Shown here one piece after another: positions 1-20,669 of a DNA stretch of 64,000 nucleotides. Origin of the DNA: Eledone cirrhosa (Eukaryota); assembly GCA_964016885.1 (NCBI GenBank), contig OZ024742.1, positions 352,594,001 to 352,658,000 of the forward strand, written 5' to 3'. The notes beneath the pieces are model-generated. The model did not search any database and was not told the origin of the DNA. It saw only the letters and a list, made by a program, of their open reading frames with translations. The translations under genes were made by a program, and so were the position numbers. Position 1 is the stretch's first letter. Each line of letters starts with the position of its first letter.

Positions 1-3000
1 AGTCACCAAAAAGCGAAACAGAAACAAACCCACAACAAACGCAAACAAGACAAAACAACCAAAACGATACACACTACACAGCATTAAATTTGAACAACAA
101 TCCATTATTACACTACATCCAACACAACACCAGCATCACAGAAAAAGACTACACAACAGCCCAAAAGTTCACACCGCCTCCACACATAGAATTCACTCGC
201 ATCACACAGAAAACGTACGAGAAACTAAAACAAAAATTCCCCAAAGACATCGGAGACTTCCGACAAGCACTCTCCAGGAGGATTTATAAGGTTATCCTTC
301 CGGAGGAGACCACAAGCAGTGAAAAGGATGGGGAAACCATCCTTCCTCTACGAGAAATAAGGTAAGTGGTCTTTCCCATCTTTTCCACTCCATTCCAACA
401 TGACCTCACTCAGAATAGGCAGCTTACCTGCGTATGGATTGGGGTCGTCATGGAAGCCGGGCCACCTGCTCAACGACCTCAGGTAACTAAACATAGATGT
501 AGTGGCCATCAGCGAAACCAGAATCTCCGAAGCACAGGCCTTCGCACCGATCTTCGGCGGCTATCATGTATACGCATCTCCAGCCGTCCTGGATCGGGGG
601 GTGGAGTTGCTGTGTTTTTTCGGTGAGGTTTGGATCTCGCCTTACGGGCCATCTTCCTGGACCCAGAGGGTAAGTTGGCGGTGCTGGACGTGACCACCGG
701 AGACAGGACATATTTCAGTCTAGTGGCCGTTATGCCGGGACAGGAACAGGGCGGCCTGATTTCTTCCGGCGTCTGGAGATGTTTCTTGGAACGTCCTGCT
801 CTTTAGTGATAGTGGACAACTGAAACGCGATAGTAATTGAACGCTGGGATTAGCAAATAGGGGAGGAGGATGCAAGACCCTCACCAACCTGCTCAGGTGT
901 TTTGAACTGTCTGACAGATAACGATTGGATTGCCCGAATGCGCAAATCTAGACTTGGACCAACCGCATCGGGTCATCCAGATAATAACTAGATAGAGTAT
1001 TTTGTAGGGAAATAGATAGGTCTAGCATAGGCTGTCCACAATTCAAGATAGTCAGCTATACAGACCACAAATTCGTGTTCTGTGTGCTTGACTTAGATAG
1101 GCTTCATAGACGTGGGTCCGGCTACTGGAAGATAAACGCGTCCTTACCAGCAAGGCCTACAGAGACCGGATTAGCGAACCAGTTAAGCGGGCGTTGACGG
1201 GGGCCACCGTCAATAACAAGTGGTGGTTTGCTCTGCAAACCGCGATTACAATAGAGTTATTTAGGTTTAGTAAGGCTTTAACTATAGAGAAAAAGAGAGC
1301 AGAGGGAGAACTAGTTAGAAAATTAGACGAAGCTCTTAGGAAAGGCATCACGACCGACGTACTTGCGGCGAAATTGGCCCTTGACCAAGTCTTCAACGCA
1401 AATGACGAAGGCTGCGTTGTCAGAGCTAGGGTGCGTGCTCTCAGACACGAGGGGACGAAAGCCGTTCAATGGGCCAGAGTGGCGGAGGCGCGTCGTTGCA
1501 ACAAAGCCAAATTCTGTCTTTGGTGGACCACGACGGGCGCATACTACTCAATCCCGGGCAAATGTGTGAAACTTTTAAGCGACACTTCGCTCAGCTGTTC
1601 GGGGTCAGCGGCGCGCCGGATCAAGGGATGGACTTTAGTGTCTACCTCGACGGACTGCCGCCTCTCTCGGCCGCTGAGGCGGAGTGTTGCGAAAAGCCGA
1701 TGGTCTGGTTTGGAGCGGCGCAGAGATGCGCCATTCCCGACAGATCCATCCACGATAACCTCCACCTCATGCGATACATTGTGGTGAGGGTAGCTAGGGA
1801 ACCTGGCACGCGTGGGTCCTTGATAAATTGCGATCAGTCGAAAGCTTTCGATAGGGTCGACCTTCGTAACACTGCGGCAGTCCTGAGGGTGGCTGGCTTT
1901 GGGCCCGTCTTCAGAGGCTGGATCTATGCTATGCTCAGTGACATCTGCTCTGTTGTGAGTGTGAACGGTCACCTTTCGAAACCGTTTAACATCATGCGCT
2001 CGGTCCGCCAAGTATGTCCCCTCTCGTCCCTGTTGTACGTATTGACTCTCGAGCCATTACTGCATAAGCTGGAGAGGTTGAGTGGGATCCCGCGCGAACT
2101 AGGATTCGAAAGATCCGTGTCAGCGTATGCGGACGATGTCACCGTAGTGGTGTCGAACGCCAAACACATCGAGGAGATCGGCACTACACGAAGAGAATAC
2201 GAACCGGTGACAGGAGCAATGCTCAACCAGGAAAAGTCCGTGGGCCTGCGGCTAGGCACCTGGAGAGGCAGGTCCATGTCGTCCAACAGCGTCGTCGGGC
2301 GTTGGACGGACGGAACGTTTAAATTGCTAGGGGTGTGGTTCGGTCCCGACCTCCAGACGGACAAAAACTGGGACGAGGTGACGAGCAGGGTGGCTTCTCT
2401 CACCGACAAAAGCGCGGAGAGGAAGCTATCCCTGAAACATCGAGCAGAGGCGGGTAATGCGAATGCCGCGTCCGTCATCTACTGACCGTCGTACCTTGTT
2501 CTAAGCCTCGCCTGACTAAGCTGGAGCATTTGTTCTTTCGCTTTTTGTGGAAGGGACGCGCTCCGATTGTCAGGCGGTCCATCTGCTATCAACACCCGCT
2601 ACGTAGAGGGCTGCGCATTCCGTGGCTGATGATGCGTAGACACGCACTCGGGCTACGACATCTCCCTCTCTTCCTCGACGGTGATCAGGTGTGATCGCCG
2701 TTTGCTAGACGCGTCTTTCAACAGATCGTCTCATTGGCGGAGCTGCAGTGCTGGGTCAAGCATAGACCGAGAGGGAGCGCTTGGAGAATGGAATATCTTC
2801 AGGCTCTCACAAACCTCGACCAATCGGGCAATGTGATCGGTGGAAAATCTACCTTGGCGTTATAAAGAGGATGGGTGGAGGAGAAGAGCGATGACGTACT
2901 TGGCGAAACTCTAGGCGTCGACGAAAATCAACTAGCCAATCTCTTCGGAAGAATTTTCGGGCCGGGGTCTATGGACAACTTCCAGAAATAGCTGGCCTGG

Positions 3001-3716
3001 CAGTGCTATCGAGGAGTTTGCCAGTTAGGGATATACTCTACAGGAATGCAGGTGCCGTCAGCCGGGCATGTCCGAGATGCGCGCCGGGCGACGAAACCGT
3101 CATGCGCGGACTCGTCCAGGGTCCGAGCATTGCTGACTTGTGGGTTTATGTCGAACACCTGCCGTCGCGTGTAGGTCGGATCCAGCTATCAGCTGAGTCC
3201 ATCGTGAGGTTTGCCCCGCCCTCTTCCTTTATCCGGGAAGGGCAGGCAATTTTTATCTGTCTGGTCACCATGGCGAAAGACACGTTTGAAAGGGCTGAAT
3301 ACGCGCACTTACCTCTTCGGCGATGCCCTGATTAACTTTTTCAAATTTCATTTGAAAAGGAATATCAGGGTAGAGAGGGAAGCGCTCTCTTCCCACCATT
3401 TTGTTGAAAGATGGGTGAGAGAGGCAAGCATGGCCCGAGAGAATGGGCCTAATCTGAGTATGTGTCTGTAAATTAAAGGTGGAAAACTGGGAGAGGGCAC
3501 TTGCCCTGGTGGTCAGGATCACTGTGGCTTTTTAATGGGCTTTCTCCACGAATGTCCCTCGGAGTCTCCCCCCTAATGGGGAATTTTTCATTGTTATTTT
3601 TTGTTACATCCTCTATTTTTGTTTTTTACACGCAGAAATGCCCATTGTACCGTCCTGTATTGTCCTGGACTGTCCTTAATGTCTACGTTATGTAAACCCT
3701 TGTGGTTAATAAAGAA
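1..3716 (+). mobile_element. Tx1/L1-clade non-LTR retrotransposon, type-B ORF1, decayed, begins before the window
   Basis: ORF1 C-terminus (90-365) matches type-B copies. ORF2 from ATG at 400 is broken by stops, frameshifts and an internal deletion near 1700, but keeps RT motifs (RQxCPLS, YADD) and CPRC. B-type end ASMARENGPNLSMCL; 3'UTR ends AATAAAGAA. Confidence 0.93.
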
Positions 3717-4642
3717 ATGTGTGCGGATGTGTGAGCTTTTCAGCAGCACTTTGCTGAACCATACAGGAGCAGCGGCGGCCCTGATCCGGGCATGGACTTC
3801 AGTGCATACCTCGACGGCCTGCCTCGACTCTCGACGACCGCCGCCTAGTGTTGCGCAAAGCCATTAACAGCCGGTGAAATAAGGGTTGCGATCGCTAACT
3901 GCACGAGGAGTAAATCGCCAGGTTTGTATAGTCTACCCTACGAGCTTTATGCATTTATGCCAGACTTGTTCGGTGACGTTTGGCAGACGTCTACTGAAAA
4001 TGGCAGTAGAACTGGAGCATTCGCAATTGTGTGAGCCGGGAGCAGTGGTGCTGCTGATAAAAGACCCGAACAAGGGGTACTTTATCGATAAATTCAGGCC
4101 CATAACCCTGCTAAACGCAGAGTTCAAGATTTTGGCCAAGGTGTTAGCAACGAGGTTGGCGCTTGTCGTCAAGTGTCTGGTGGGAGGCGCATACATGCGC
4201 CATTCCGGAGAGATCCATAGACGGACCTCCTCCTCATGCGATACATCATAGAGAGGGTGGTTAAGGAACCTGGCACGGGTGGGGCCCTGATCTAATTGGA
4301 TCAATCCAAAGCATTCGATAGGGTCGACCATCGGTACCTGGCAGCGGTCCTCGAGGCAGCCGCTTTCGGGCCCGTTTTCAGGGGTTGGATCGCAGCGATG
4401 TACAGCCATGTACAGTGGTGATGGTAAACGGTCATCTGTCGTAGCCGTTCAACATCATGCGCTCAGTCCGCCAGGTTTGTACCCTCTCGTCCCTCTTGTA
4501 CGTATTTGCTCTCTATTTTTCATTGTTATTTTTTTATTACATGCTCTGTTTTTTTTACATGCAGAAATTCGTACTGTCCTGTATTATCCTGTACTGTCCT
4601 TAATGTCTACGTTATGAAAACCCTTGTGGTTAATAAAGAAAA

Positions 4643-4643
<1 letters not shown>
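3717..4643 (+). mobile_element. 5'-truncated, internally deleted fragment of a diverged Tx1 subfamily (RT part joined to the 3' terminus)
   Basis: FRPITLLNAEFKILAKVLA motif, then an abrupt jump near 4505 to the Tx1 3'-terminal sequence ending AATAAAGAAAAC before (ATT)n. Confidence 0.85.
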
Positions 4644-4693
<50 letters not shown>

Positions 4694-4709
4694 GATTATT
4701 ATTATTATT
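4644..4709. repeat. (ATT)n microsatellite shared tail-to-tail by a Tx1 (+) and a Dong-like (-) element
   Basis: Read directly from the sequence. Confidence 0.97.
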
Positions 4710-7472
4710 CTTAGAGTCTCAGTCATTGATGTTAGGTAACTGGAAAGTTTGTTGAAATGAATATCAAGCCACTACCTGCAGCCACAGATATTCAGGACGT
4801 ATCGGAGGATTCTTACTGTTCCCAGCAAGCATGCCTTTTGAAGCTTTCCAAAAAGCTTGGCGGGGCCAATTTTCTTTAACCATCCCTGCAAACTTTTTGA
4901 GATAGTTCCTGGTGCGCCCATGACAATCGGGACCACTTGACTTCATGGCAGTTCTAAATCCTTTTTCCCTCCGACTTTAAGTCCTGGTATCGGTTAATTT
5001 TCTCCCTCTCCTTCTCTTGCACTCTCGTGTCGAATGGGCAGGCCAGATCCACAATCAGGCTCGATATTATTTCATTATCCAAAACCACCAGGTCAGGTCT
5101 ATTGTGTTCCAGTTTCTTGTCCGTCTGTATCCTAACATCCCACAGCACCTTCACCTGATCGTTTTCTATAACCGACCCTGGCTTATGCTCATACAACTTC
5201 TCAGAATGTGGTAAATTGTCTACTTTGCGTAGGTGCCAGTGGATCACCCTGTCCATCACATCATGTCTCCATCCCTTATAGTGAGTCTGGGCTAGGTGTT
5301 TACACTCGGATACAATGTGAGCCACAGTCTCCTCTATCTCTCTCCACAGATCCTGCAAGGTGGGCTAGCCTCCTCCTTGTAAATATGGTGTTTCAACCAC
5401 TTCGTTTTGAGGGCCTGCTCTTGCGCAGCCATTAACATTCCTTCTGTAGCCTTTTTAATGTCTCCTCTTTTCAACCAGTTCCATGTCTGTGGATCTCTGA
5501 ATTAATTTTTCTCAAAAAAGGTACTATGAAGGGATTTTTTCATGAAGGCTGCTCTTTCTCCTTGTTGTTATTTCCTCCTTGGACATCCCCTGGTCTATTG
5601 TCCTCTCCTTCAGTACAGTTCTGAGCATTGGCTCCTTACTATCGGTCACGTATTTGTGTAGGTTGTTTTCTCCATCTCAACACAGTCCTCTATGCTGATA
5701 AGACCTCTTCCCCCATCATATCTCCTTAAGTAGAGTCTATCGACATCACTCCACTTGTGGAACATGTTGTACATAGTCAATAGCTTCCTAGTTTTCCTAT
5801 CCATTTCTTTTTGTTCAGCAACATTCCATCTCAGATTTACCGCACTGTACCTAATAATAGACCCAGCTCGGGAATTTACTGCACTTATGGCATTCCTATT
5901 GTTCAGATGTGAGATTAATACGCTCCTTTCTCTCCGACTGTATTCAGATCATATCAATTCCTTCATTGTTGTGTTCTGGATGTCATCAGCATCCAGAACA
6001 CCCAAACACTTGTATCCTTCTTCAGTGTCAATTTCCTTTATCATCTCACCTATTGGTACCTGGATTCCGTTGCTTCTGCTCAATTTACCCCTCTTCATCA
6101 CAAGGACTCCACACTTACTCATACCAAATTGCATACATATATATACGGTCTCCTCTCTCTCTCCACAGATCCTGCACAGTGGGCTAGCCTCCTCCTTGTA
6201 AATATGTTGTTTCAACCACTTCGTTGTGAGGGCCTGCTCCTGCGCAGCCATTAACACTCCTTCTGTAGCCTTTTTAAGGTCTCCTCTTTTCAACCAGTTC
6301 CATGTATGTGGATCTCTGAATTAATTTTTCTCAAAAAAGGTACTATGAAGGGATTTTTTCATGAAGGCTGCTCTTTCTCCTTGTTGTTATTTCCTCCTTG
6401 GACATCCCCTGGTCTATTGTCCTCTCCTTCAGTACAGTTCTGAGCATTGGCTCCTTACTATCGGTCACGTATTTGTGTAGGTTGCTTTTCTCCATCTGAA
6501 CACCGTCCTCTATGCTGATGAGACCTCTTCCACCCTCAGATCTCCTTAAGTAGAGTCTATCGACATCACTCCTCTCATGGAACATGTTGTAGATAGTCAA
6601 TAGCTTCCTAGACTTCCTATCGATTTCTTTTTGTTCAGCAACATTCCATCTCCGAATTCCCGCACTGTACCTAATAATAGACACAGCTCGTGAATTTACT
6701 GCACTTATGGCATTCCTACTGTTCAGATGTGACTTTAATACGCTCCTTACTCTCCGAATGTATTCAGTTCTTATCAATTCCTTCATTCTTTTGTTCTTGA
6801 TGTCATCAGCCTCCAGAACACCCAAATACTTGTATCCGTCTTCAGAGTCAATTTCCTTTATCATCTCACCTGTTGGTACCTGGATTCCGTTACTTCTGCT
6901 CAACTTACCCCGCTTCATCACAATGACTCCACACTTACTAATACCAAATTGCATACATATATCATTGCTGAAAATACGGACAGTGTCAACAAGCACATCC
7001 AACTCCTTCTCACTCTTCCCGAAGAGCTTAAGATCGTCCATGAAGTGGAGGTGATTGATGGTAAGCCCTCCCTTTCCCAATCTGTATCCTGCTCTCACTT
7101 TTCGCAGTACACTGGTGAGGGGCATCAGGTCAAGGACAAACAGCAGAGCGCACAGACTATCTCCCTGGAAGATACCTCTCTTGATATTCACGCTTCCCAA
7201 GGATTCTCCAGTTGATGTTATCTCTGTTTCCCAGGACTTCATACTTTTTCCCAACAACTGTCTGATGTTATTTGCCACCTTGAAGATCTCCAGGCTTTTG
7301 GTGATCCAAGAATGAGGCATGTTGTCAAATGCCTTTTTGTTTGTCTATCTATCCCATGGCAAGACCAGTGTGTCTCCTCTTGCAATTCTTCATTACCATC
7401 TTATCAATAAGTAACTGGTCCTTTGTACCACGTGACCTCTTTCGGCATCCTTTCTGTTCGTACCCCAATAAC
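4710..7472 (-). mobile_element. R4/Dong-like RLE retrotransposon, family X, 5'-truncated, with an internal ~815 bp tandem duplication
   Basis: RT motifs RGIFQGDSL, HFMDDLKL, YKYLG (6343-7320); CCHC region; RPDLVVLD..VDLACP..EK nuclease motif (4954-5358). 5326-6141 is repeated at 6148-6961. Confidence 0.92.
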
Positions 7473-7990
7473 GTCATGGCAGAAGAAGAGTCCATCTCTA
7501 ACAGTGTAAAAGCCTGAGAAAGGTTTGTGTCGACTTCTCTGACTTGTCACCTGCATTTCCTCCTTAACCAAGTTCCACCGCTTCATCCTGGAGACGAATG
7601 CTTAAAACACAACTTACCGTTTATTCAGCGTGCGAAAATCCAGTTTCAATAAATCTCCTTAATCCACTTTTTAACAATGTTATACTTTATTGCACCTTTA
7701 TAATTTTCTTTAGGTATTACTCTCTATTTTATAATTTTAATTTAACCTGAAACATATATAAAAAAATTCATTTAACATAAGCAAATTATACTTACATAAA
7801 ACGTAAAATCCAGCATACAAATAATTCTAGTGAATAGGTTAGAATGTTTACAAACCCAAACATTTAACTGTTTAATAGCACTTTTTTTATTTATTTGGGA
7901 CCTAAGCAACACAAAAAGTGATTACAAGCCAGGAACAGAGAACATTCTTATTTTGTTTCACGGTGATAATGTTCAAATCATTTTATTTCT

Positions 7991-8036: not shown

Positions 8037-8776
8037 AGCAATATTTGTACATATAATTAACCTCCTATTAAACTGAACAATCATAGAGATACATGGATAT
8101 TAATATTGTCAACAACAGTTTCATATTTACAGAGTGGAATGGATGTGACATAGATTACAAGATTTGTACAATAGTTAAAATTAAAAATTAAAAAGGCACA
8201 TACTGGAATGCATGCGACAGAGATTACAAGGGAATAGTATAATAATTAAAGAGGCATTAACGTAGAAAGTTACTCGTAAAACGAGGACACTAGCAGTACA
8301 TATGCAAGCGTATAGAGAGTACACATGCGTTGGGGATATACAGGAAGGAAACAAGCAATGGTACTAGGCATATATAATTACTGCATGGCAAATGTATCAG
8401 TTAAAATAACAGGTTTACAAGCATATTAAGCAGGCAAAGATGTTTGTGTATTACAATTATGCGTTTATGGTGGATCTAGTGTGATGATTGTTTCTGTAAT
8501 GTTGAAACGTGTAGGTGTTGAGAGTATCAATGTTATTGCTATATTTTCCATTACATTGGTATAATTTTATTTTAGTGAATGTTTTTAATTAGTTACACTA
8601 TGGATTGTATATTGGTCCTATTATATTGTTATCCAGAGTTCGAGTTGTTGTGGAGTGATTCTTCTAACGGTTTAATTTCCGGAAGTGAGTGTGAGATCTA
8701 TATTAAGGGGAGCTAATGTGAAAGAGGAGGTAACTAGCGAATAAATTGTATATGATAGAATAAATTAGAAAAAATG

Positions 8777-9187
8777 GGAAAAGTTTATAGTTGTTTACAG
8801 TTCCAATTAGTTAAATTCTTTGTGCTAATATACATTATATTGTGTTTCAAGTGAATACCTTTTATATAATTCTATTAGTTTATATTTAATTTGAAATACA
8901 ATCTATTTTCCTATAATACATTAAAGTCTCATTATATTGTTATGTATCCATTACTGAATAATGTATAAGTAAGCTATAGGAAAAATGCATAGTTGTTTAC
9001 AGTTCCAATCAGTTAAATCTCTTGTCTGATTAATATACATTATATTATGTTATAAGTGAATCTATTATATATAATGCTATTAATTTATATATTTAATTAT
9101 ACAAATAATTTATTTTCCTATGAAAAATTAAGTGTCTCATCATATTATTATCTGTCCATTACTGAATATAATATAAGCAAGCTATAG
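8777..9187. repeat. Two diverged tandem copies of a ~205 bp AT-rich unit
   Basis: ggaaaa..tagttgtttacagttccaat..aagctatag begins at 8777 and again at 8979. Confidence 0.85.
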
Positions 9188-9399
9188 TGGTTATATTAAA
9201 TGGTGTTAACTTTGTTTATTCCTAATAGTTATTGTAGAGTATAAGGTTTGATATAAATAGGAGATAGGTAGAGGGATGAGCTGATCATATAGTGTGATGC
9301 TGTGGGCGTAATACGTATATATGCTGATAAGACCTAGAGGTGAAGTGTTAATGGTGGTGAGGAATTCAGATCTGACATTGTTATATACTAGCAGCTAGG

Positions 9400-10825
9400 T
9401 TTAAAGCTATGGAAAGAGTGTCGCTGGTAGTGTTGGCACATTCAGAACATCTCCGATTTTCTATTTAGGAGGTCTAGTTTAGAATATATTATAGTGCGTG
9501 TCTCTAGAAGACAGAGGTTACATAATATATTCGGTGGTTTATACGATGTGGCCCTATCTACTACTTCCCATTGAAGTGTATATGGTCTATTCCTAGTTTT
9601 CAGAGAGTGTATGTAGCTAGATAAAGAATTGGAGTTGGCTAGATTGCGAATTTTCAAACTGTGGAGATGCGAGTATTATCTCGTCTTGAAGCAGTTCGAA
9701 GTTGAACCGATATATGATTTAGAAGAGTTGTTTGTGTAGACCGTGCATGAGTAAATGATGTCTTTGATTAAGCAATGTTTACCTAAGGGGAAAGTTCTAT
9801 TTGTTCGACAATTACAGTTACTCTGGTTGTTTGCTTGCCGGTTACTATGTTGTGTAGATGCCTGGTTGTTAGGGATAGCATTAGGGTAATGATGGCTGTC
9901 GTTCCCGTTGTTATTAATTTCATTAGTGCTATTATCGTTATTATTATTATTGCTACTAGACATCTCTGGTAGTATGTTGCTCTGTAAGTTTACCTCCTGT
10001 TGTGATTTAATGATTTGGAAATAATTATTAATCTTCCTTTTATTACTACTAGCTATATGGTATGCGATGTTAGGTGTGGTAGAGTAAGATTTTAATGGTA
10101 TTTGTAATGATAAGATTATGGTATTTGTGACCGGCTGGGAAGTTTTTTTTCAGGATTGAGAAGAAAACGTTAGGCAAGTTGGTAGAGACGTTTAAAGTGA
10201 AAGGGGGATTGAAGAATGTATTAGTTCTTCTCCTATTTTTGTTTTTTGTAAGGTTATTTGAGGTATTGTTTATATTTCTGGTTATAATATTATTGTGGTG
10301 TTTATTCTGATGCGAGTTAAGTTTGATATTACACTTCGTATTAGAGTTAGAGTGGCGAGTACTTTTATTATTTTCCCCCATGGCCATATTGTGAGAAATA
10401 TTGTTGTAACTAGTTGATTTTATAGGTAGAAATTTAATCTAATTTAATCTGATTTAGCTAAGGCCTCATGATTGTATTGGGAATTATTGTTAAATATGGT
10501 TTCGTTATATGATATATTAGAGATTCTATTTGATATTACTTTAGTAATTGAGTTTAATATGGATTTAGGGTGGTTAGAGTTGATATCTACATAACGTAGT
10601 TTTTCGTTTGTTTTATGAAAGGGTGTATATATTTTAAACCCCAGGTAAAGGGTAGTATCAAGGAAGTTAACGTTTTTAGTGTTTTAATACCTAAGTTGAA
10701 GTTTTTGAAAATGTTATGTAATTTTTTCCTAGTTCTTTCTATATTAATTTGTTTATAGTCTATAATAAGTAGTGCATCAACGCGGTATAAACCACCATCG
10801 AGCTAGGGTAGGTTCTTATGTCAAA
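9400..10825 (-). mobile_element. Decayed Penelope-like retroelement (RT C-terminal part plus GIY-YIG endonuclease, Naiad-like)
   Basis: GLYR(V)D and SNHP RT/thumb remnants near 10790-10565, FNPPF, CNCR..PLGKHCL..IIYSCTV..YIGST..FKTR, and terminal CNLCLLE..LLNRKSE. Confidence 0.85.
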
Positions 10826-10944
10826 GATGTTGTGGGTATCCTTGCGGGTCCATAATTGATCTTCAAATGTAATTATGGTTTTTCGGGCCGCAAGGATGAC
10901 ATCAATTTGGGATCTAGTAAGGTCATTGTTGTACATAGCGATAT

Positions 10945-11053
<109 letters not shown>

Positions 11054-11725: not shown

Positions 11726-11812
11726 CCGTGTACCAAACACACACACACGTTTCTTATCCTCTGTCTCTCTTTGTTTCTCTCTTCATTTATATATATATAT
11801 ATATATATATAT

Positions 11813-11893
11813 AACGGAGAAAATGTGGTTAGGAACCAGGTGGACCATAACGCACCAAACTACTCAATACTTAGCGTAGTAGAGTGGGTAATA
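11813..11893 (+). repeat. ~75 bp dispersed repeat between (TA)n tracts; second copy at 18763-18838
   Basis: gtggt..aggtggaccat..gcacca..tactc.atacttag.gtagtagagtgggtaata occurs in both places. Confidence 0.8.
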
Positions 11894-12498
11894 GGAACGA
11901 GTAGGACCCCGACGGCTGAGCTCAAGCCCTTTCGACGGCTAATTCTGGACTAAATGAACATTTTTATCCTGGTATTTGAATAGCCGAGCTTCTCAAGGGG
12001 TAATTCCATATATGGTCAAAGTGATTGTCACAAGGATTGGTCAAAAGTTTGTTGTTGAGACATAATAATTCTATGATGGCAATTTGTGGAGAGAAGGGGT
12101 AGCTAAACCTGCCAGTAAGAGAAAGAGGGAGAGGGGGTGGAGGAGACCCATTCATGCGTTGATAGTGCCGACTACAGCTGGGCATGAGGTCAAAGAAGAT
12201 ACTAGGGAGGGGGAGAGGGAGGAAGTCGAAACAATAAGTAGAACAATAAGGGGTAAATATATCTCCCTCTTTCTCCTACAGGCAGGTTTAGCTACCTCTT
12301 CCCTCCACAAATTGCCATCATAGAATTATTATGTCTCAACAAAAAACTTTTGACTAATCCTTGTAACAATCACTTTGACCATATATGGAATTACCACTTG
12401 AGAAGCTCGGCTATTCAAATACCAGGATAAAAATGTTCATTTAGTCCAGAATTAGCCGTCGAAAGGGCTTGAGCTCAGCCGTCGGGGTCCTACTCGTT

Positions 12499-12500
<2 letters not shown>
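11894..12500. mobile_element. MITE-like element, 607 bp, with ~240 bp terminal inverted repeats, TA-flanked
   Basis: 11894-12131 is the near-perfect reverse complement of 12262-12500 (ggaacgagtaggacccc.../...ggggtcctactcgttcc). TA on both sides, no convincing ORF. Confidence 0.85.
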
Positions 12501-12535
<35 letters not shown>

Positions 12536-12539
<4 letters not shown>

Positions 12540-12570
12540 CAAGGGTTGAGATAGTACGTTGGTTTGACAG

Positions 12571-12603
<33 letters not shown>

Positions 12604-13200
12604 GATATATACACACACAAATCTCTCAAATCAACGTACTATCTCAACCCTTGTAATTTTAAACAGACAGTTTTCTGTGTTTAAAACTACATATATTATT
12701 ATAATGCTCCGTATTTATACTTTGAGCTTGTTAGTTACAGGGTATTAACATGAGTTTTTAAGTCTGCCCTTTATTTGAATTGCGGCTCCCTAACTTGGTG
12801 AGCATATAAGTTGAGTGTATTTAGGCTATTATTTCTAGCCAATCCACTCACGCCAGTTTGGAATTCTCGCGCACGAGGTGAAATATTCATTCGTGTAGCT
12901 TTTAGTTTTAGGTGTTTGTCACATTTGATCTTATCTCTCGCTGATGATACCTACGGATTATTTCTTACAAACACAATTCTCAAGGCGAAACAGATTAAAT
13001 CTCTAATCTGTCCGGGAGATGATTGTTTATTGAAACGGTCTGTACATTTTACTCTTTATTCTGTATTTTCCGTTTGCTTCAGGTTAAATCTGCCAAACCA
13101 ACGTGGTATCTCAACCCTCGTAATTTTAAGCACAACATCTACTCTGTTTATTACTACATATAATATTTTATATACACATATATATATATGTAAATAACAA
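12536..13200 (+). mobile_element. Non-coding hammerhead-bearing element (Penelope pLTR/retrozyme-like) with an inverted tail and a partial direct repeat
   Basis: Palindrome 12536-12657 centred on (TA)n; 12619-12665 repeated directly at ~13086-13130; hammerhead between the two repeats. Confidence 0.7.
12933..13020 (+). ncRNA. Type I hammerhead ribozyme
   Basis: atctctcg CTGATGA tacct...aaggc GAAA cagatta(aatctc)taatctg TC cgggagat. 8-bp stem I, 7-bp stem III, GUC site after 13012; base of stem II imperfect. Confidence 0.8.
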
Positions 13201-13221
13201 TGCCATATATATATGTATATG

Positions 13222-13272
<51 letters not shown>

Positions 13273-13408
13273 AGTGTAATTTTCTACACAAAACGAAGGT
13301 TATAGAGAAAATTGAGGTTGGTAATGGCACATGGAATATATAAGAGACAGAATACTTTTTTGTGAAAAAACATAATTTTATAAGGTAAGGAAATAATAAA
13401 GGGTATAA

Positions 13409-13456
13409 AAAATGACCGGTTTCGATGGGTCTGCAAAAGCCATCTTTTCAAATGTT
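13409..13456 (-). ncRNA. Minimal type I hammerhead (U3-A8 variant), inverted copy of 15035-15082
   Basis: Reverse complement of the plus-strand copy. Confidence 0.55.
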
Positions 13457-13686
13457 GATTAATATTAAGAAAAATTAATAATACGAAGAGTTAAAATTTG
13501 AGACTTGAAAATTCAAGTATAAAATTCATTGTGGGATTTCATAGCAGTTTTCATCTAGGTAGCAACAACAGGTTGACTGCTGTGTCCCTTTCTGGTAGTG
13601 AATGAGAAGTTATTTGGGGTGTGGGTTATTTTATAAAGGTCAGATTTAGCAATAGCCAGCTGCTGGTCAGTGAGGGGGTGGAAGCA

Positions 13687-13730
13687 ATATACACACACAT
13701 ATACCTTCATCCACACATACATACACATAC

Positions 13731-13779
<49 letters not shown>

Positions 13780-13848
13780 CACACATACATACACACACAC
13801 ATACATATACATACACACATACACACACACACACATATATATACACAT

Positions 13849-13909
<61 letters not shown>

Positions 13910-13976
13910 TATATATACATACACATACATCCAGATGCACACATACATACGCACACACACACACACACATATATAT

Positions 13977-14043
<67 letters not shown>

Positions 14044-14084
14044 TACACACACACATATATATATACATACACACATACAAACAT

Positions 14085-14115
<31 letters not shown>

Positions 14116-14290
14116 CACACATACACACACATATATATACACACACACACACACACATGCACACACAATACATACATCCACATGCACACACATACTCACA
14201 CACACACACACACACATACATACACCCACACACAGAGAAATGGCCTTCAAATATATATATATATATATATACATACAGACACATATATTT
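13687..14290. repeat. Compound (CA)n/(TA)n microsatellite
   Basis: Read directly from the sequence. Confidence 0.96.
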
Positions 14291-14695
14291 TTTCCATAAT
14301 ATAAGAAGTTGGGGCAGTGAAATTAAAATAATTCTGTGTGCGCATATATATATAGATATACGTGTGTGCACGTGCAGGGTTTAACATGGATGTGTTGGTC
14401 ACACAAAGGCATGGTCTGTCAATGAATAAACCTGATTCTACAGAATTGGTCTCTGGTCTTTAATAGTAGTGATTCCGTGCGTATGTGTGTTTATATTTTA
14501 TGACAATTCTATTGGGGTGATAACCCGTTTAGTTTTGGTTTAAATTTGTTAAGGAATAGATTTTCTTTGTTTATTCTTTGTTGTTGTGTGAACGAATCTG
14601 AGCACTTGTAGAAGGGGAAGATTTTAAAGTTGGGTAGTGTCATTCCTGCGCAGTTCGCAATATGGCTGCTCAAGGGGATTTTTCTTGTGTTAGCG

Positions 14696-14760
<65 letters not shown>

Positions 14761-15034
14761 GTATGTGTATGTATGTGTGGATGAAGGTATATGTGTGTGT
14801 ATATTGCTTCCACCCCCTCACTGACCAGCAGCTGGCTATTGCTAAATCTGACCTTTATAAAATAACCCACACCCCAAATAACTTCTCATTCACTACCAGA
14901 AAGGGACACAGCAGTCAACCTGTTGTTGCTACCTAGATGAAAACTGCTATGAAATCCCACAATGAATTTTATACTTGAATTTTCAAGTCTCAAATTTTAA
15001 CTCTTCGTATTATTAATTTTTCTTAATATTAATC

Positions 15035-15082
15035 AACATTTGAAAAGATGGCTTTTGCAGACCCATCGAAACCGGTCATTTT
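15035..15082 (+). ncRNA. Minimal type I hammerhead (U3-A8 variant)
   Basis: aacat TTGAAAA gatgg(cttttgcagac)ccatc GAAA ccgg TC atttt. Perfect 5-bp stem II, palindromic CCGG stem III, GUC site after 15077, stem I 4/5 paired. Confidence 0.6.
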
Positions 15083-15182
15083 TTATACCCTTTATTATTT
15101 CCTTACCTTATAAAATTATGTTTTTTCACAAAAAAGTATTCTGTCTCTTATATATTCCATGTGCCATTACCAACCTCAATTT

Positions 15183-15279
<97 letters not shown>

Positions 15280-16359: not shown

Positions 16360-16903
16360 TCCTCTTCTTCTTCTTCTTCTTCTTCTTCTTCTTCTTCTTC
16401 TTCTTCTTCTTCTTCTTCTTCTTTTTCTTTTTCTTCTTCTTCTTCTTCTTCTTCTTCTTCTTCTTCTTCTTCTTCTTCTTCTTCTTCTTCTTCTTCTTCT
16501 TCAGGATCATCATCATCATCATCATCCTCTTTTTTTTCTTCACCATAATCTGCTTCTTTTTCTTCCTCTCCTCCCCCTCCTCCTCCTCCTTCTTCTTCTT
16601 CTTCATTTTCTTTTTCCTTTTCTTTTTCTTTGTCTCTTTCTTTTTCTTTTTCTTTTTCTTTTTCTTTTTCTTTTTCTTTTTCCTTTTCCTTTTCCTTTTG
16701 CTTTTCCTTTTCCTTTTCCTTTTCCTTTTCTTTTTCTTCTTCTTCTTCTTCTTCTTCTTCTTCTTCTTTTTCTTCTTCTTCTTCTTCTTCTTCTTCTTCT
16801 TCTTCTTCTTCTTCTTCTTCTTCTTTTTCTTCTTCCCCATCGTCATCATCATCATTATCATCCGCTTCATCATTGTCATCATCATCATCATCGACATCAT
16901 CAT

Positions 16904-16934
<31 letters not shown>

Positions 16935-17110
16935 TTCTTGTTCTTCTTCTTCTTCTTCTACTTCTGCATCTTCTCCTTCTTCTTCTTCTTGTTCTTCTTG
17001 TTCTTCTTCGTATTCTTCTTCTTCTTCTTCTTCTTCTTCTTCTTTTTCTTCTTCTTCTTCTTCTTCTTCTTCTTCTTCTTCTTCTTCTTCTTCTTCTTCT
17101 TCTTCTTCAC
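16360..17110. repeat. Compound (TTC)n/(TCA)n/(TTTTTC)n microsatellite
   Basis: Read directly; it explains the poly-E/K/F/S ORFs in the track. Confidence 0.96.
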
Positions 17111-18330: not shown

Positions 18331-18833
18331 TACTTGAAGCACTGCCTCAGTCAGTATAACATTTGATACAATAAATAAACATACAATTCGGGTGTAAATC
18401 TGCGTATTTGTTTCAAATAATGTAACATAACTCGAGATAATGAAACTGACGAAAGAGAAATTGAACACCGGAATAAACATATCTAGAAAGGGATTTATAT
18501 CATTTTTAGTTTGGGTCCTTATACCTGATAGTAAACCTCATGAATTCAAACTAAAATTAGGAAAATAACACAAGTACTTGTTCTCATATATAAATGTGTG
18601 TATTTACGAAGTTTATTAATCTAATAACTTATAGATAAGTGCAACATTGTTGTTAATATTCCTGTTAAACGTGTAGCGGTAGGCTGCTTAAATACCATGA
18701 CGAAGCACGAATGAGCTAATATCATTAATAAAGAGTAAATAAAATATGATATATATCTATATAACAAGTGTGGTAAGAAACTAGGTGGACCATTATGCAC
18801 CAGAGTACTCGATACTTAGGGTAGTAGAGTGGG

Positions 18834-18893
<60 letters not shown>

Positions 18894-18920
18894 ACTAGAA
18901 CTTGATTGGCATATATAAAA

Positions 18921-19421
18921 TATATTTAAAACAAACACATGAAACAATCACAGGGGATAATTTGGAAAGTGTGTAATCACACACAGCTAGGTAGGAAACT
19001 AATTAAAGTTTAACTAGAGCTTCAAATATTACCTTTTATGAAATGATTAATCCTCCTTGTATATATTTCATTAAATAAATATATTTCACTAAAAATCCGT
19101 AAAGTCACAGTAATTAAATCTTAGATTATCAGCAAGGAGGAAGAAATAACTGTCTGTGTTTACACATCAAATGCAAATCTGCGAGTGACCCGTCGCACGT
19201 GCTGCAATTCTAAAACTACTAACAACATGCTAGCGTCCTCCCATTGGCGTGAATATGGTGGTCGACAGCTTTAAATAGCAGCCAAGTCCTTTCAACCGAT
19301 TTAGCTCTACAATTAAGGCAATATTTGAAGCTCTAGTTAAACTGTAATTAGTTACCTACCTAGCTGTGTGTGATTACACACTTTACAAATTATCCCCTGT
19401 GTTTGTTTAATGTGTTTATTT

Positions 19422-19430
<9 letters not shown>
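18921..19430 (-). mobile_element. Non-coding element with ~115 bp inverted ends and a central hammerhead, in (TA)n context
   Basis: 18921-19035 is the reverse complement of ~19315-19430; hammerhead at 19052-19140. Confidence 0.75.
19052..19140 (-). ncRNA. Type I hammerhead ribozyme with G8A core change
   Basis: Minus strand: cctccttg CTGATAA t ctaaga...ttttag t GAAA tatattt(atttaatg)aaatata TA caaggagg. Stems of 8, 6 and 7 bp. Confidence 0.7.
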
Positions 19431-19506
<76 letters not shown>

Positions 19507-19513
<7 letters not shown>

Positions 19514-20488
19514 AAATGTAATCCTGGTATGTGTATATGCATTTCTTCTAACATTAATTTTATACCTAATTGTGCATGGTTGACGGTATATTTAATCGAT
19601 TTTCACGTGCTGTTGAAATATTCGATATATATTCTATGGCGGTTGGCCGCTAAGAGATTGCTGTCGTTTATTTATCCACTATTTCTTCATAGGTACCTTT
19701 TAATCTTATAGCCTGGTCTGATTGGTTTTTGTGACGTTAATTATGCTAATTGGGAGAGGAAATGGTGTATATATATTATCAAATGATTCTATGGACATAC
19801 TTTATAGTATATTGCTCTGAATATTTAATTTATTAATTCATCATTGAGTCACATCGTGAATAGTTGCCAAAACACATATATATCTGTGACTTTGTCTTGT
19901 TTATGTATATGTACATCTTTTTATTTAATAAACTCCCATAAGGTTGAGATGCAATTTGGGCAATATTGGGCTGCGCTTTCTAGCAACCAGCCCACTCACC
20001 GTAAGCAACCAATCACATTCTTTCTGACTTGACCACTGCTACGTCAGAATTCTTAGCCATTTTGAATTCGTTTCTGACGGAGATAACTTAAAAAAATCAT
20101 TTGTCCAAACGAGTTTATTTCCTGATGAGTTCGAAGCTCGGGATTTTATCCTTAATAGAATATTTCCAAATGCGACGAAACCCGAGGGTAGAAACGTAAT
20201 CCTGGTATGTGTATATGCATTTCTTCTAACTTTAATTGTATACCTAATTGCGTATGATTGACGGTATATTTAATCGATTTCCACGTGCTGTTGAAATGTT
20301 GGGTAAATTATATGGCGGTTGGCTGCGAAGAGATTGGTGTCGTTTATTTATCCACTATTTCTTCATAGGTGCCTTAATCTTATAGCCTGGTCTAATTGAT
20401 TTTTTGTGTGGTTAATTATGCTAATTGGGAGAGGAAAAGGTGTATATATATTATCAAATGATTCTATGGACATACTGTATAGTATATA
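19507..20488 (+). mobile_element. Retrozyme/Penelope pLTR-like element: ~305 bp direct repeats (period 678 bp) with a hammerhead at the repeat boundary, between (TA)n tracts
   Basis: agggtagaaa.gtaatcctggtatgtg...ggacatact.tatagtatat at 19507-19811 and 20185-20488. Confidence 0.8.
20118..20194 (+). ncRNA. Minimal type I hammerhead ribozyme with intact core
   Basis: tttc CTGATGA gttcg...cgac GAAA cccgaggg TA gaaa; GUA site after 20190. Confidence 0.75.
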
Positions 20489-20534
20489 TATATATATATA
20501 TATATACATATGTATAAATATGAATGCATGTATG

Positions 20535-20669
<135 letters not shown>

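What the first reader, a model, noticed from the sequence alone, without database searches (positions are those of the whole stretch)
19507..20488. Retrozyme-like 1.45-mer whose repeat starts at the ribozyme cleavage site
Seen: ~305-bp direct repeats with a period of 678 bp. The first begins at AGGGTA|GAAA, six bases before the predicted GUA cut, and the complete intact-core hammerhead reforms only at the second. Stem III (CCC-GA-GGG) is too tight for a monomer and suits a dimeric fold. Inference: reverse transcription of a ~678-nt self-cleaved, possibly circular RNA beyond unit length, inserted in (TA)n.
Basis: partly seen in the sequence, partly recalled or inferred. Interest (0 to 1): 0.72.

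Follow-up and report, generated by a model that had tools for sequence, protein, structure and literature searches.

The report
Decayed hammerhead-bearing Penelope-type passenger element
This 980-base non-coding stretch, about one and a half head-to-tail copies of a repeat unit with a hammerhead-ribozyme motif, sits in a TA microsatellite and is likely an old copy of an abundant passenger element moved by Penelope-type retrotransposons, a known kind; its start five bases before the predicted cut site is real but probably coincidental.

Summary
In detail: direct repeats at 19508-19812 and 20186-20487 (91% alike, period 678), one complete type I hammerhead motif (20118-20194), (TA)n on both sides. 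Two corrections. The element starts 5 bases before the predicted cut (6 with a shared A), so the template ran through the site twice. Helix III can also close as a monomer (3 pairs plus a tetraloop), although a dimer is more stable. Public runs show a high-copy family with head-to-tail junctions; this copy has drifted about 6% from the family majority, with weakened helices I and II. Its layout (partial tandem, sense hammerhead near the 3' end, helix III of 4 pairs plus 2 bases, TA target) matches Hydra-clade Penelope-like elements. A decayed Hydra-type element lies 8.6 kb away but shares no DNA similarity with it. Best reading: a non-autonomous Penelope-type element (retrozyme-like), copied beyond unit length and 5'-truncated. 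That model is already in print. Cleavage, circles and clustering of paralogue 5' ends at the cut are unshown, and the one indirect look gave no sign of clustering. New member of a known kind.

The parts
19425..19507 (.). Left (TA)n flank (41.5 units), shared with an inverted-repeat element further left; its last A is a 1-nt microhomology with the element
19508..19812 (+). Upstream partial unit (pseudo-LTR-like), 5'-truncated; begins GGGTA|GAAAT, i.e. the 3' strand of helix III, the cleavage triplet and the 3' strand of helix I, without a catalytic core
19513..20190 (+). Predicted cut-to-cut monomer, 678 nt, 34% GC, non-coding; circular fold -155.6 kcal/mol, z -2.1 against 40 shuffles (modest)
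19813..20185 (+). Single-copy part of the unit; differs from the family majority at 21-22 of 372 positions among the rows shown
20118..20194 (+). Type I hammerhead motif with intact core; predicted cut after GUA at 20190/20191; helix III ACCC-GA-GGGT
   Evidence: family variants
20186..20487 (+). Downstream repeat; 3' end 297 nt after the predicted cut, at an internal TATAT that merges into the (TA)n (5-nt microhomology); inferred start of reverse transcription
   Evidence: depth highest at 20388-20433
20483..20665 (.). Right (TA)n/(TG)n microsatellite flank; no target-site duplication can be resolved
8774..10939 (-). Context, not part of the element: decayed, 5'-truncated Hydra-type Penelope-like element (RT C-half, CxC linker, GIY-YIG without CCHH) next to (TA)n, with two ~205-bp repeats at its 3' side

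Best explanation
The stretch 19508-20487 is 1.45 head-to-tail units of a 678-base non-coding, high-copy repeat carrying one intact-core type I hammerhead motif, and is likely a non-autonomous Penelope-type (retrozyme-like) retroelement that was probably copied into a (TA)n tract by the reverse transcriptase and endonuclease of a Hydra-like Penelope element. Inferred steps: the endonuclease nicks (TA)n; the nicked DNA primes on an internal UAUAU about 297 nt downstream of the ribozyme site; reverse transcription runs through the site, through a full unit and through the site again, on a circle or an uncut multimer (the DNA cannot tell which); synthesis then stops, giving the usual variably 5'-truncated upstream copy. 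The stop 5 nt past the site is taken as an ordinary truncation. The two repeats were likely near-identical at insertion and have since decayed, and this copy's ribozyme is probably weak or dead.
For: Shown: repeats, period and motif. No ORF, and no remnant of the Hydra-type endonuclease (best E 0.011 for 150 homologues). High-copy family: 3174 contigs laid in X1, 3485 reads in X9, 53 contigs in X4, 4 in X8, with depth in all 30 bins for X1, X9 and X4. Head-to-tail joints 20487->19813 (X1 1 contig, X9 1 read), 20487->19822 (X1) and 20447->19813 (X4). Depth peaks near the 3' end (X1 322-438k at 20388-20433 vs about 50-70k at 19951-20065), as expected of 5'-truncated copies with a shared 3' end. 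Family variants improve the fold: G at 20117 in 193 of 203 X9 reads makes helix I GTTTC/GAAAC, and an A behind 20174 in 51 of 97 X9 reads makes helix II GTTCG/CGAAC. Age: at all 8 displayed positions where the repeats differ, the majority letter is that of repeat 1. Both repeats share a minority C at 20353 (T in 442 of 557 X9 reads), which fits one template. From papers: a full-length copy preceded by a variably 5'-truncated one is the standard Penelope layout (PMC2377424 passages; PMC8557442 section 6). Hydra-clade elements insert in (TA)n (26 of 27 families listed) and have sense hammerheads near the 3' end, with helix III of 4 pairs plus a 1-2 nt loop in 22 of 25 families and exactly 4+2 in 6 (PMC8557442 supplement, my count). 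A Penelope enzyme starts reverse transcription internally, downstream of the hammerhead, and prefers uncut RNA (PMC11167929). A decayed Hydra-type element sits in this window.
Against: No autonomous partner is identified: the unit has no DNA similarity to the neighbouring Hydra-type element's 3' region (local scores 24-27, below shuffle maxima 34-40), and four short words from it are absent from the published consensus files (an exact-word, weak test). Loop 2 is 39 nt against 3-10 nt in the listed Hydra hammerheads. Naiad and Neptune elements also favour (TA)n, so the Hydra assignment is only a lean. A random 5' end falls within 6 nt of the cut about 2% of the time (13/678, my arithmetic), so 'ordinary truncation' relies on this locus having been picked for that coincidence. 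Summed contig depth is no copy number, and the 3' peak may partly reflect related subfamilies. Only one locus was seen whole.
Confidence: 0.6

Rival explanations
1. Same element, but the ribozyme sets the 5' end: reverse transcriptase stops at the apex of helix III on its second pass over the ligated or nicked junction. The kept GGGUA|GAAAU is the minimal substrate strand that the downstream core could cut at long range.
For: The end lies exactly at the helix III apex, 5 nt from the cut; about 2% by uniform chance. Co-folding 19508-19524 with 20105-20184 gives the hammerhead three-way junction as the lowest-energy state (-18.5 kcal/mol). Depth rises across the site in three runs (X1 2.7k->11.3k->33.8k; X9 100->186->283; X4 2.6->5.0->19.8).
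Against: One copy, chosen after the fact. No (TA)n-clipped pile at 20185/6 among the 24 loose-end rows shown (393 hidden). The depth trough spans 20089-20203 and, like the other troughs, follows stretches where this copy diverges from the family. Depth upstream of the ribozyme (50-70k in X1) is close to that just downstream (57-92k). The long-range pairs have probability 0.00 in the whole 980-nt fold. In the one Penelope element studied in vitro, uncut RNA was the main substrate and no RNA ends were found at the site (PMC11167929).
Confidence: 0.22
2. The present ends were shaped after insertion: a longer tandem array or a local DNA duplication was trimmed by deletion into the unstable (TA)n tracts or by the neighbouring inverted-repeat insertion.
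For: Both ends touch long microsatellites, and the left one is shared with another (TA)n-flanked element (18837-19507). The copy is old (9% between repeats).
Against: The head-to-tail junction also occurs in runs of two organism labels. The 3' end falls at an internal TATAT that fits target priming. A partial tandem needs no later trimming in this class.
Confidence: 0.1
3. The same RNA was mobilised by a LINE-type reverse transcriptase rather than a Penelope-like one.
For: Several RVT_1-encoding repeats lie in the window. PMC7229834 names LINEs as possible helpers.
Against: No poly(A) or LINE-like tail, and no similarity of the element to any other repeat in the window. Partial tandem, hammerhead geometry and (TA)n target all point to Penelope-like elements.
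Confidence: 0.05
4. An ordinary small LTR element (TRIM-like, or like a plant LTR retrozyme) with 305-bp LTRs.
For: Sizes resemble plant LTR retrozymes (600-800 nt circles, as stated in PMC7229834).
Against: The ends are GGGTAG... and ...AGTATAT, not TG...CA. TGCTCTG, not TGG, follows repeat 1. No purine tract precedes repeat 2. The ribozyme is type I and straddles the repeat boundary instead of lying in both repeats.
Confidence: 0.03

Closest known systems
Non-LTR retrozymes of animals (Cervera and de la Pena 2020, PMC7229834; Li, Clavereau and Pollet, bioRxiv 10.64898/2026.07.22.740005)
   Same: Non-coding, low-GC (34%), type I hammerhead, head-to-tail units, no LTR/PBS/PPT; proposed circle-templated, more-than-unit reverse transcription; proposed dependence on Penelope-like elements.
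   Different: Only one complete ribozyme at this locus (the preprint requires two for an 'active' retrozyme). The 678-nt unit is longer than the 150-450 bp of the 2020 paper but inside the 51-972 bp of the preprint. Long loop 2. No RNA evidence here.
Hydra-clade Penelope-like elements (Craig et al. 2021, PMC8557442)
   Same: (TA)n target, sense hammerhead near the 3' end, helix III of 4 pairs with a 2-nt loop, partial-tandem layout; a decayed Hydra-type ORF lies in the same window.
   Different: No RT or GIY-YIG ORF in the unit; loop 2 much longer; no sequence link to an autonomous Hydra element shown.
Hammerheads with small palindromic helix III in Penelope pseudo-LTRs (Cervera and de la Pena 2014, PMC4209133)
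   Same: Near-palindromic helix III that favours a dimer; G10.1-C11.1 pair; the same circle/overlength model was proposed there.
   Different: Helix III here is long enough to close as a monomer; the motif lies in a free non-coding unit, not beside an ORF.
Plant LTR retrozymes (as described in PMC7229834 and the 2026 preprint; the 2016 paper seen only as a search listing)
   Same: Ribozyme-to-ribozyme span of about 700 nt; terminal direct repeats.
   Different: Those have type III ribozymes in both LTRs, PBS, PPT, a 4-bp target duplication and GC above 55%; none of these is seen here (the duplication cannot be resolved in (TA)n).

Membership tests
Type I hammerhead ribozyme | Conserved core CUGANGA, GAAA and NUH triplet in type I order | tested here: met
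   CTGATGA 20122-28, GAAA 20177-80, GTA 20188-90
Type I hammerhead ribozyme | Helices I, II and III can pair | tested here: met
   4, 4 (one bulge) and 3-4 pairs; family variants lengthen I and II; but this copy's active fold lies about 11 kcal/mol above its local minimum (-6.8 vs -17.6)
Type I hammerhead ribozyme | Match to an Rfam hammerhead model | tested here: inconclusive
   No hit; the 39-nt loop 2 probably explains the miss (inference)
Type I hammerhead ribozyme | Self-cleavage | not testable with these tools
   needs an in vitro assay
Non-LTR retrozyme | Non-coding unit with a type I hammerhead, GC under 50% | tested here: met
   34% GC; only short stop-to-stop frames in the unit
Non-LTR retrozyme | Tandem units, at least two with a complete ribozyme | tested here: not met
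   One complete motif at this locus; head-to-tail joints exist in the family but no multimer was seen whole. So this locus is not filed as an active retrozyme.
Non-LTR retrozyme | Lacks LTR termini, PBS and PPT | tested here: met
   read from the sequence
Non-LTR retrozyme | Expressed as unit-length linear and circular RNA | not testable with these tools
   no RNA run could be laid
Non-autonomous Penelope-like element (Hydra-type) | Partial tandem: full unit preceded by a 5'-truncated copy | tested here: met
Non-autonomous Penelope-like element (Hydra-type) | Sense hammerhead near the 3' end with short helix III | tested here: met
   297 nt from the 3' end; 4+2 geometry as in 6 of 25 listed Hydra families
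Non-autonomous Penelope-like element (Hydra-type) | Insertion in (TA)n | tested here: met
   (one locus)
Non-autonomous Penelope-like element (Hydra-type) | 3' end or pseudo-LTR homologous to an autonomous element | tested here: inconclusive
   No similarity to the one neighbour or to published consensus files by four exact words; the host genome was not available
Autonomous Penelope-like element | ORF with RT and GIY-YIG endonuclease | tested here: not met
LTR element / plant LTR retrozyme | TG...CA termini, PBS, PPT | tested here: not met
LTR element / plant LTR retrozyme | Type III ribozyme in both repeats | tested here: not met
   type I, one copy, straddling the boundary
LTR element / plant LTR retrozyme | Short target-site duplication | tested here: inconclusive
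   cannot be resolved inside (TA)n

The most novel reading that the evidence does not exclude
In this family reverse transcription ends by rule at the helix III apex, so each insertion carries a full ribozyme at one end and only its minimal substrate strand (GGGUA|GAAA) at the other. One core would then cut the upstream site at long range and its own site, releasing a unit circle from a 1.45-mer. That would be a ribozyme-defined terminus for Penelope-type insertions and a genomic footprint of a circular template.
Probability: 0.15. Interest if true: 0.68.

Novelty: new member of a known kind. Interest (0 to 1): 0.33.

Why it matters
How Penelope-like elements regenerate their pseudo-LTRs, and what their hammerheads do, are stated as open in PMC2377424 and PMC8557442. 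A short, ORF-free family with many copies is a good natural data set: the spread of its 5' ends around the cut site tests directly whether the ribozyme shapes insertions. It may also be a passenger of the little-studied Hydra clade. My search for Hydra + Penelope-like + non-autonomous + hammerhead from 2021 on returned two papers, and the parts I read of the relevant one describe no such passenger. As it stands, one decayed copy adds a family, not a mechanism.

Tried and rejected
Whole-genome search for paralogues: no genome held. Rfam: no hammerhead hit. Exact-pattern scans for relatives: metagenome contigs gave 2 hits, both chance 20-21-mers with no flanking similarity; viral contigs gave 0, 20 and 0 hits for three patterns, and the 20 show nothing beyond the seed except one 38-nt, 84% stretch that I treat as chance; prokaryote genomes gave 0. 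No RNA holder listed; this says nothing about expression. The six read-end piles shown for X9 (19953, 20068, 20237, 20246, 20394, 20397) all fall at AATT sites, so they are restriction ends of the library, not element ends. Free folding of 20100-20215 does not give the hammerhead (z +0.83). The neighbouring Hydra-type element as the partner: no DNA similarity and no intact hammerhead found there by strict or relaxed scan. A word-index protein search with an 84-aa piece found nothing; the full HMMER scan did. Pfam gave only a weak GIY-YIG match for the neighbour (E 0.0065, below cut-off) and no RT or GIY-YIG family for 5 long homologues, so its clade rests on motif comparison with the published description and alignment. 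A search for that protein family in viral contigs found none. The left inverted-repeat element as an inverted copy of this unit: no similarity. The Terminon paper was not held. Supplements of the 2026 bioRxiv preprint are closed and those of PMC4209133 and PMC7229834 were not opened; they may list similar families or end positions.

Full report
Observation. The two repeats are real: 19507-19812 and 20185-20487, 91.2% identical over 307 columns, 678 bases apart. Both ends run into (TA)n. A type I hammerhead can be read across the start of the second repeat: helix I TTTC/GAAA, core CTGATGA at 20122-20128, helix II GTTCG/CGAC around a 39-nt loop, GAAA at 20177-20180, helix III ACCC-GA-GGGT, and a predicted cut after GUA at 20190/20191. 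It is the only hit of my descriptor in the window, and none of 3000 shuffles of the unit gave a hit. Rfam misses it. The A at 19507 is also the last base of the microsatellite, so the element begins at G19508, five bases before the site. And helix III can close in a monomer as three pairs plus a CGAG loop (-1.5 kcal/mol), although two copies pair far more strongly (-13.2). PMC7229834 (passages) describes two pairs plus a tetraloop as typical of invertebrate hammerheads and reports efficient cleavage of a coral monomer; whether its count includes the A-U core pair I could not see.

The family. No host genome is held, so I laid four of eleven listed public runs on one unit, 19813-20492. The unit is highly repeated in organism A (3174 contigs in X1, 3485 reads in X9), present in organism B (53 contigs) and faint in organism E (4). 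All 30 bins are covered in three runs, and the head-to-tail junction appears as joints 20487->19813, 20487->19822 and 20447->19813. Depth is highest near the 3' end (X1 322-438k at 20388-20433 against about 50-70k at 19951-20065), as expected if many copies share a 3' end and are cut short at the 5' side; the tool warns that this depth is no copy number.

Age of this copy. In the single-copy part it differs from the majority at 21-22 of 372 positions among the 40 rows shown (222 hidden), and its repeats differ at 27 of 303 columns. At all eight displayed positions where the repeats disagree, repeat 1 has the majority letter, and both repeats share a minority C at 20353. This fits two repeats made from one template that then decayed. 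The family keeps a better ribozyme than this copy: G at 20117 (193 of 203 X9 reads) extends helix I, and an extra A behind 20174 (51 of 97 X9 reads, but only about a tenth of X1 depth) completes helix II. No change in the core is among the rows shown. In this copy the active fold lies about 11 kcal/mol above the local minimum and has near-zero probability in the whole transcript.

What it resembles. A full unit preceded by a variably 5'-truncated copy is the standard Penelope arrangement that creates pseudo-LTRs (PMC2377424 passages; PMC8557442 section 6). PMC4209133 (two of four parts read) reports hammerheads with a small palindromic helix III in these repeats, and already proposes circles copied beyond unit length as the source of the tandems. 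The 2026 preprint (three of five parts read) argues that animal retrozymes are non-autonomous Penelope derivatives with units of 51-972 bp. The closest structural match is the Hydra clade: in the supplement of PMC8557442, 26 of 27 families insert in (TA)n, 22 of 25 listed hammerheads have a four-pair helix III with a 1-2 nt loop, and 6 have exactly the 4+2 form seen here; their loop 2 is much shorter (3-10 nt).

The neighbour. On the minus strand at 10939 to about 8770 lies a decayed, 5'-truncated element next to (TA)n. Its frame read through two stops finds 1026 relatives at E<=1e-10, and long relatives align in order over the RT half, linker and endonuclease. Their motifs (DKT, CxC linker, no CCHH) fit the published Hydra description and alignment (comparison by eye). 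It shares no DNA similarity with the 678-nt unit, so it shows that such helpers exist in this genome, not that this one is the partner.

Mechanism. Shown: layout, motif, non-coding nature, family status, decay. Inferred: a Penelope-type endonuclease nicked a (TA)n tract, and the DNA primed on the internal TATAT at which the element ends (the unit itself reads AGTATATTGC at that point). Internal initiation downstream of the hammerhead, on mostly uncut RNA, has been shown for an anole Penelope enzyme (PMC11167929, two of four parts read). Because GGGTA precedes the site at both positions, the template was continuous across the site twice. A cleaved linear RNA would end at G19513 without those five bases. 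A circle, an uncut multimer or a jump to a second template all fit.

Is the 5' end set by the ribozyme? A uniform end falls this close about 2% of the time, it sits at the helix III apex, and the kept bases can complete a hammerhead junction with the downstream core when the two short pieces are folded together (-18.5 kcal/mol). Depth also rises across the site. Against this: the locus was picked for the coincidence; no (TA)n-clipped pile at 20185/6 is among the 24 loose-end rows shown (393 hidden); depth upstream of the ribozyme is about as high as just downstream; the depth dips follow this copy's divergent stretches; and the long-range pairs are not predicted in the full transcript. I give ordinary truncation 0.6 and a ribozyme-set end 0.22. 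An earlier AI note on another genome (unchecked) placed Penelope 5' ends just before the hammerhead core rather than at the cut; it is a lead only.

Verdict. Not an LTR element: no TG...CA, no primer site, no purine tract, wrong ribozyme type. Not an 'active' retrozyme by the two-ribozyme rule. It works like a non-autonomous Penelope-type, retrozyme-like element, probably of Hydra affinity; formal membership waits on an autonomous partner. My five answered paper searches showed no report of this family or of retrozyme 5' ends clustering at the cut, but the library lacks most subscription papers and Repbase was not available. New member of a known kind; interest 0.33.

Noticed in passing
window 8774-10939 (- strand): Decayed Hydra-type Penelope-like element, 5'-truncated at the (TA)n at 10941-11049, with two ~205-bp repeats (81% alike) at its 3' side; no intact hammerhead found.
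   Followed up: partly
window 18837-19507: (TA)n-flanked element with ~133-bp inverted arms (89%) that shares its right microsatellite with the finding; not similar to the 678-nt unit.
   Followed up: partly
window 11891-12503, 12536-12657 and 13204-15266: Three more inverted-repeat structures touching (TA)n (242 bp at 97%, 122 bp self-inverted at 92%, 584 bp at 94%); could be inverted 5'-truncated Penelope-type insertions or foldback elements.
   Followed up: no
window 11795-11893 and 18744-18838: A ~100-bp repeat (83% alike) that lies directly before an inverted-repeat element at both places.
   Followed up: no
window 1-7500 and 24000-64000: Large interleaved arrays of several-kb repeats, some with reverse-transcriptase or zf-RVT frames and (ATT)n ends; many near-identical copies between 44 and 64 kb.
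   Followed up: no
window 16363-17108: A 750-bp (TCT)n/(CAT)n low-complexity tract.
   Followed up: no
window 20181-20188, in reads of X1 and X9: Family variants of helix III exist: a GAA loop in 3 X9 reads and a TA insertion behind 20183 in 2 X1 contigs.
   Followed up: no
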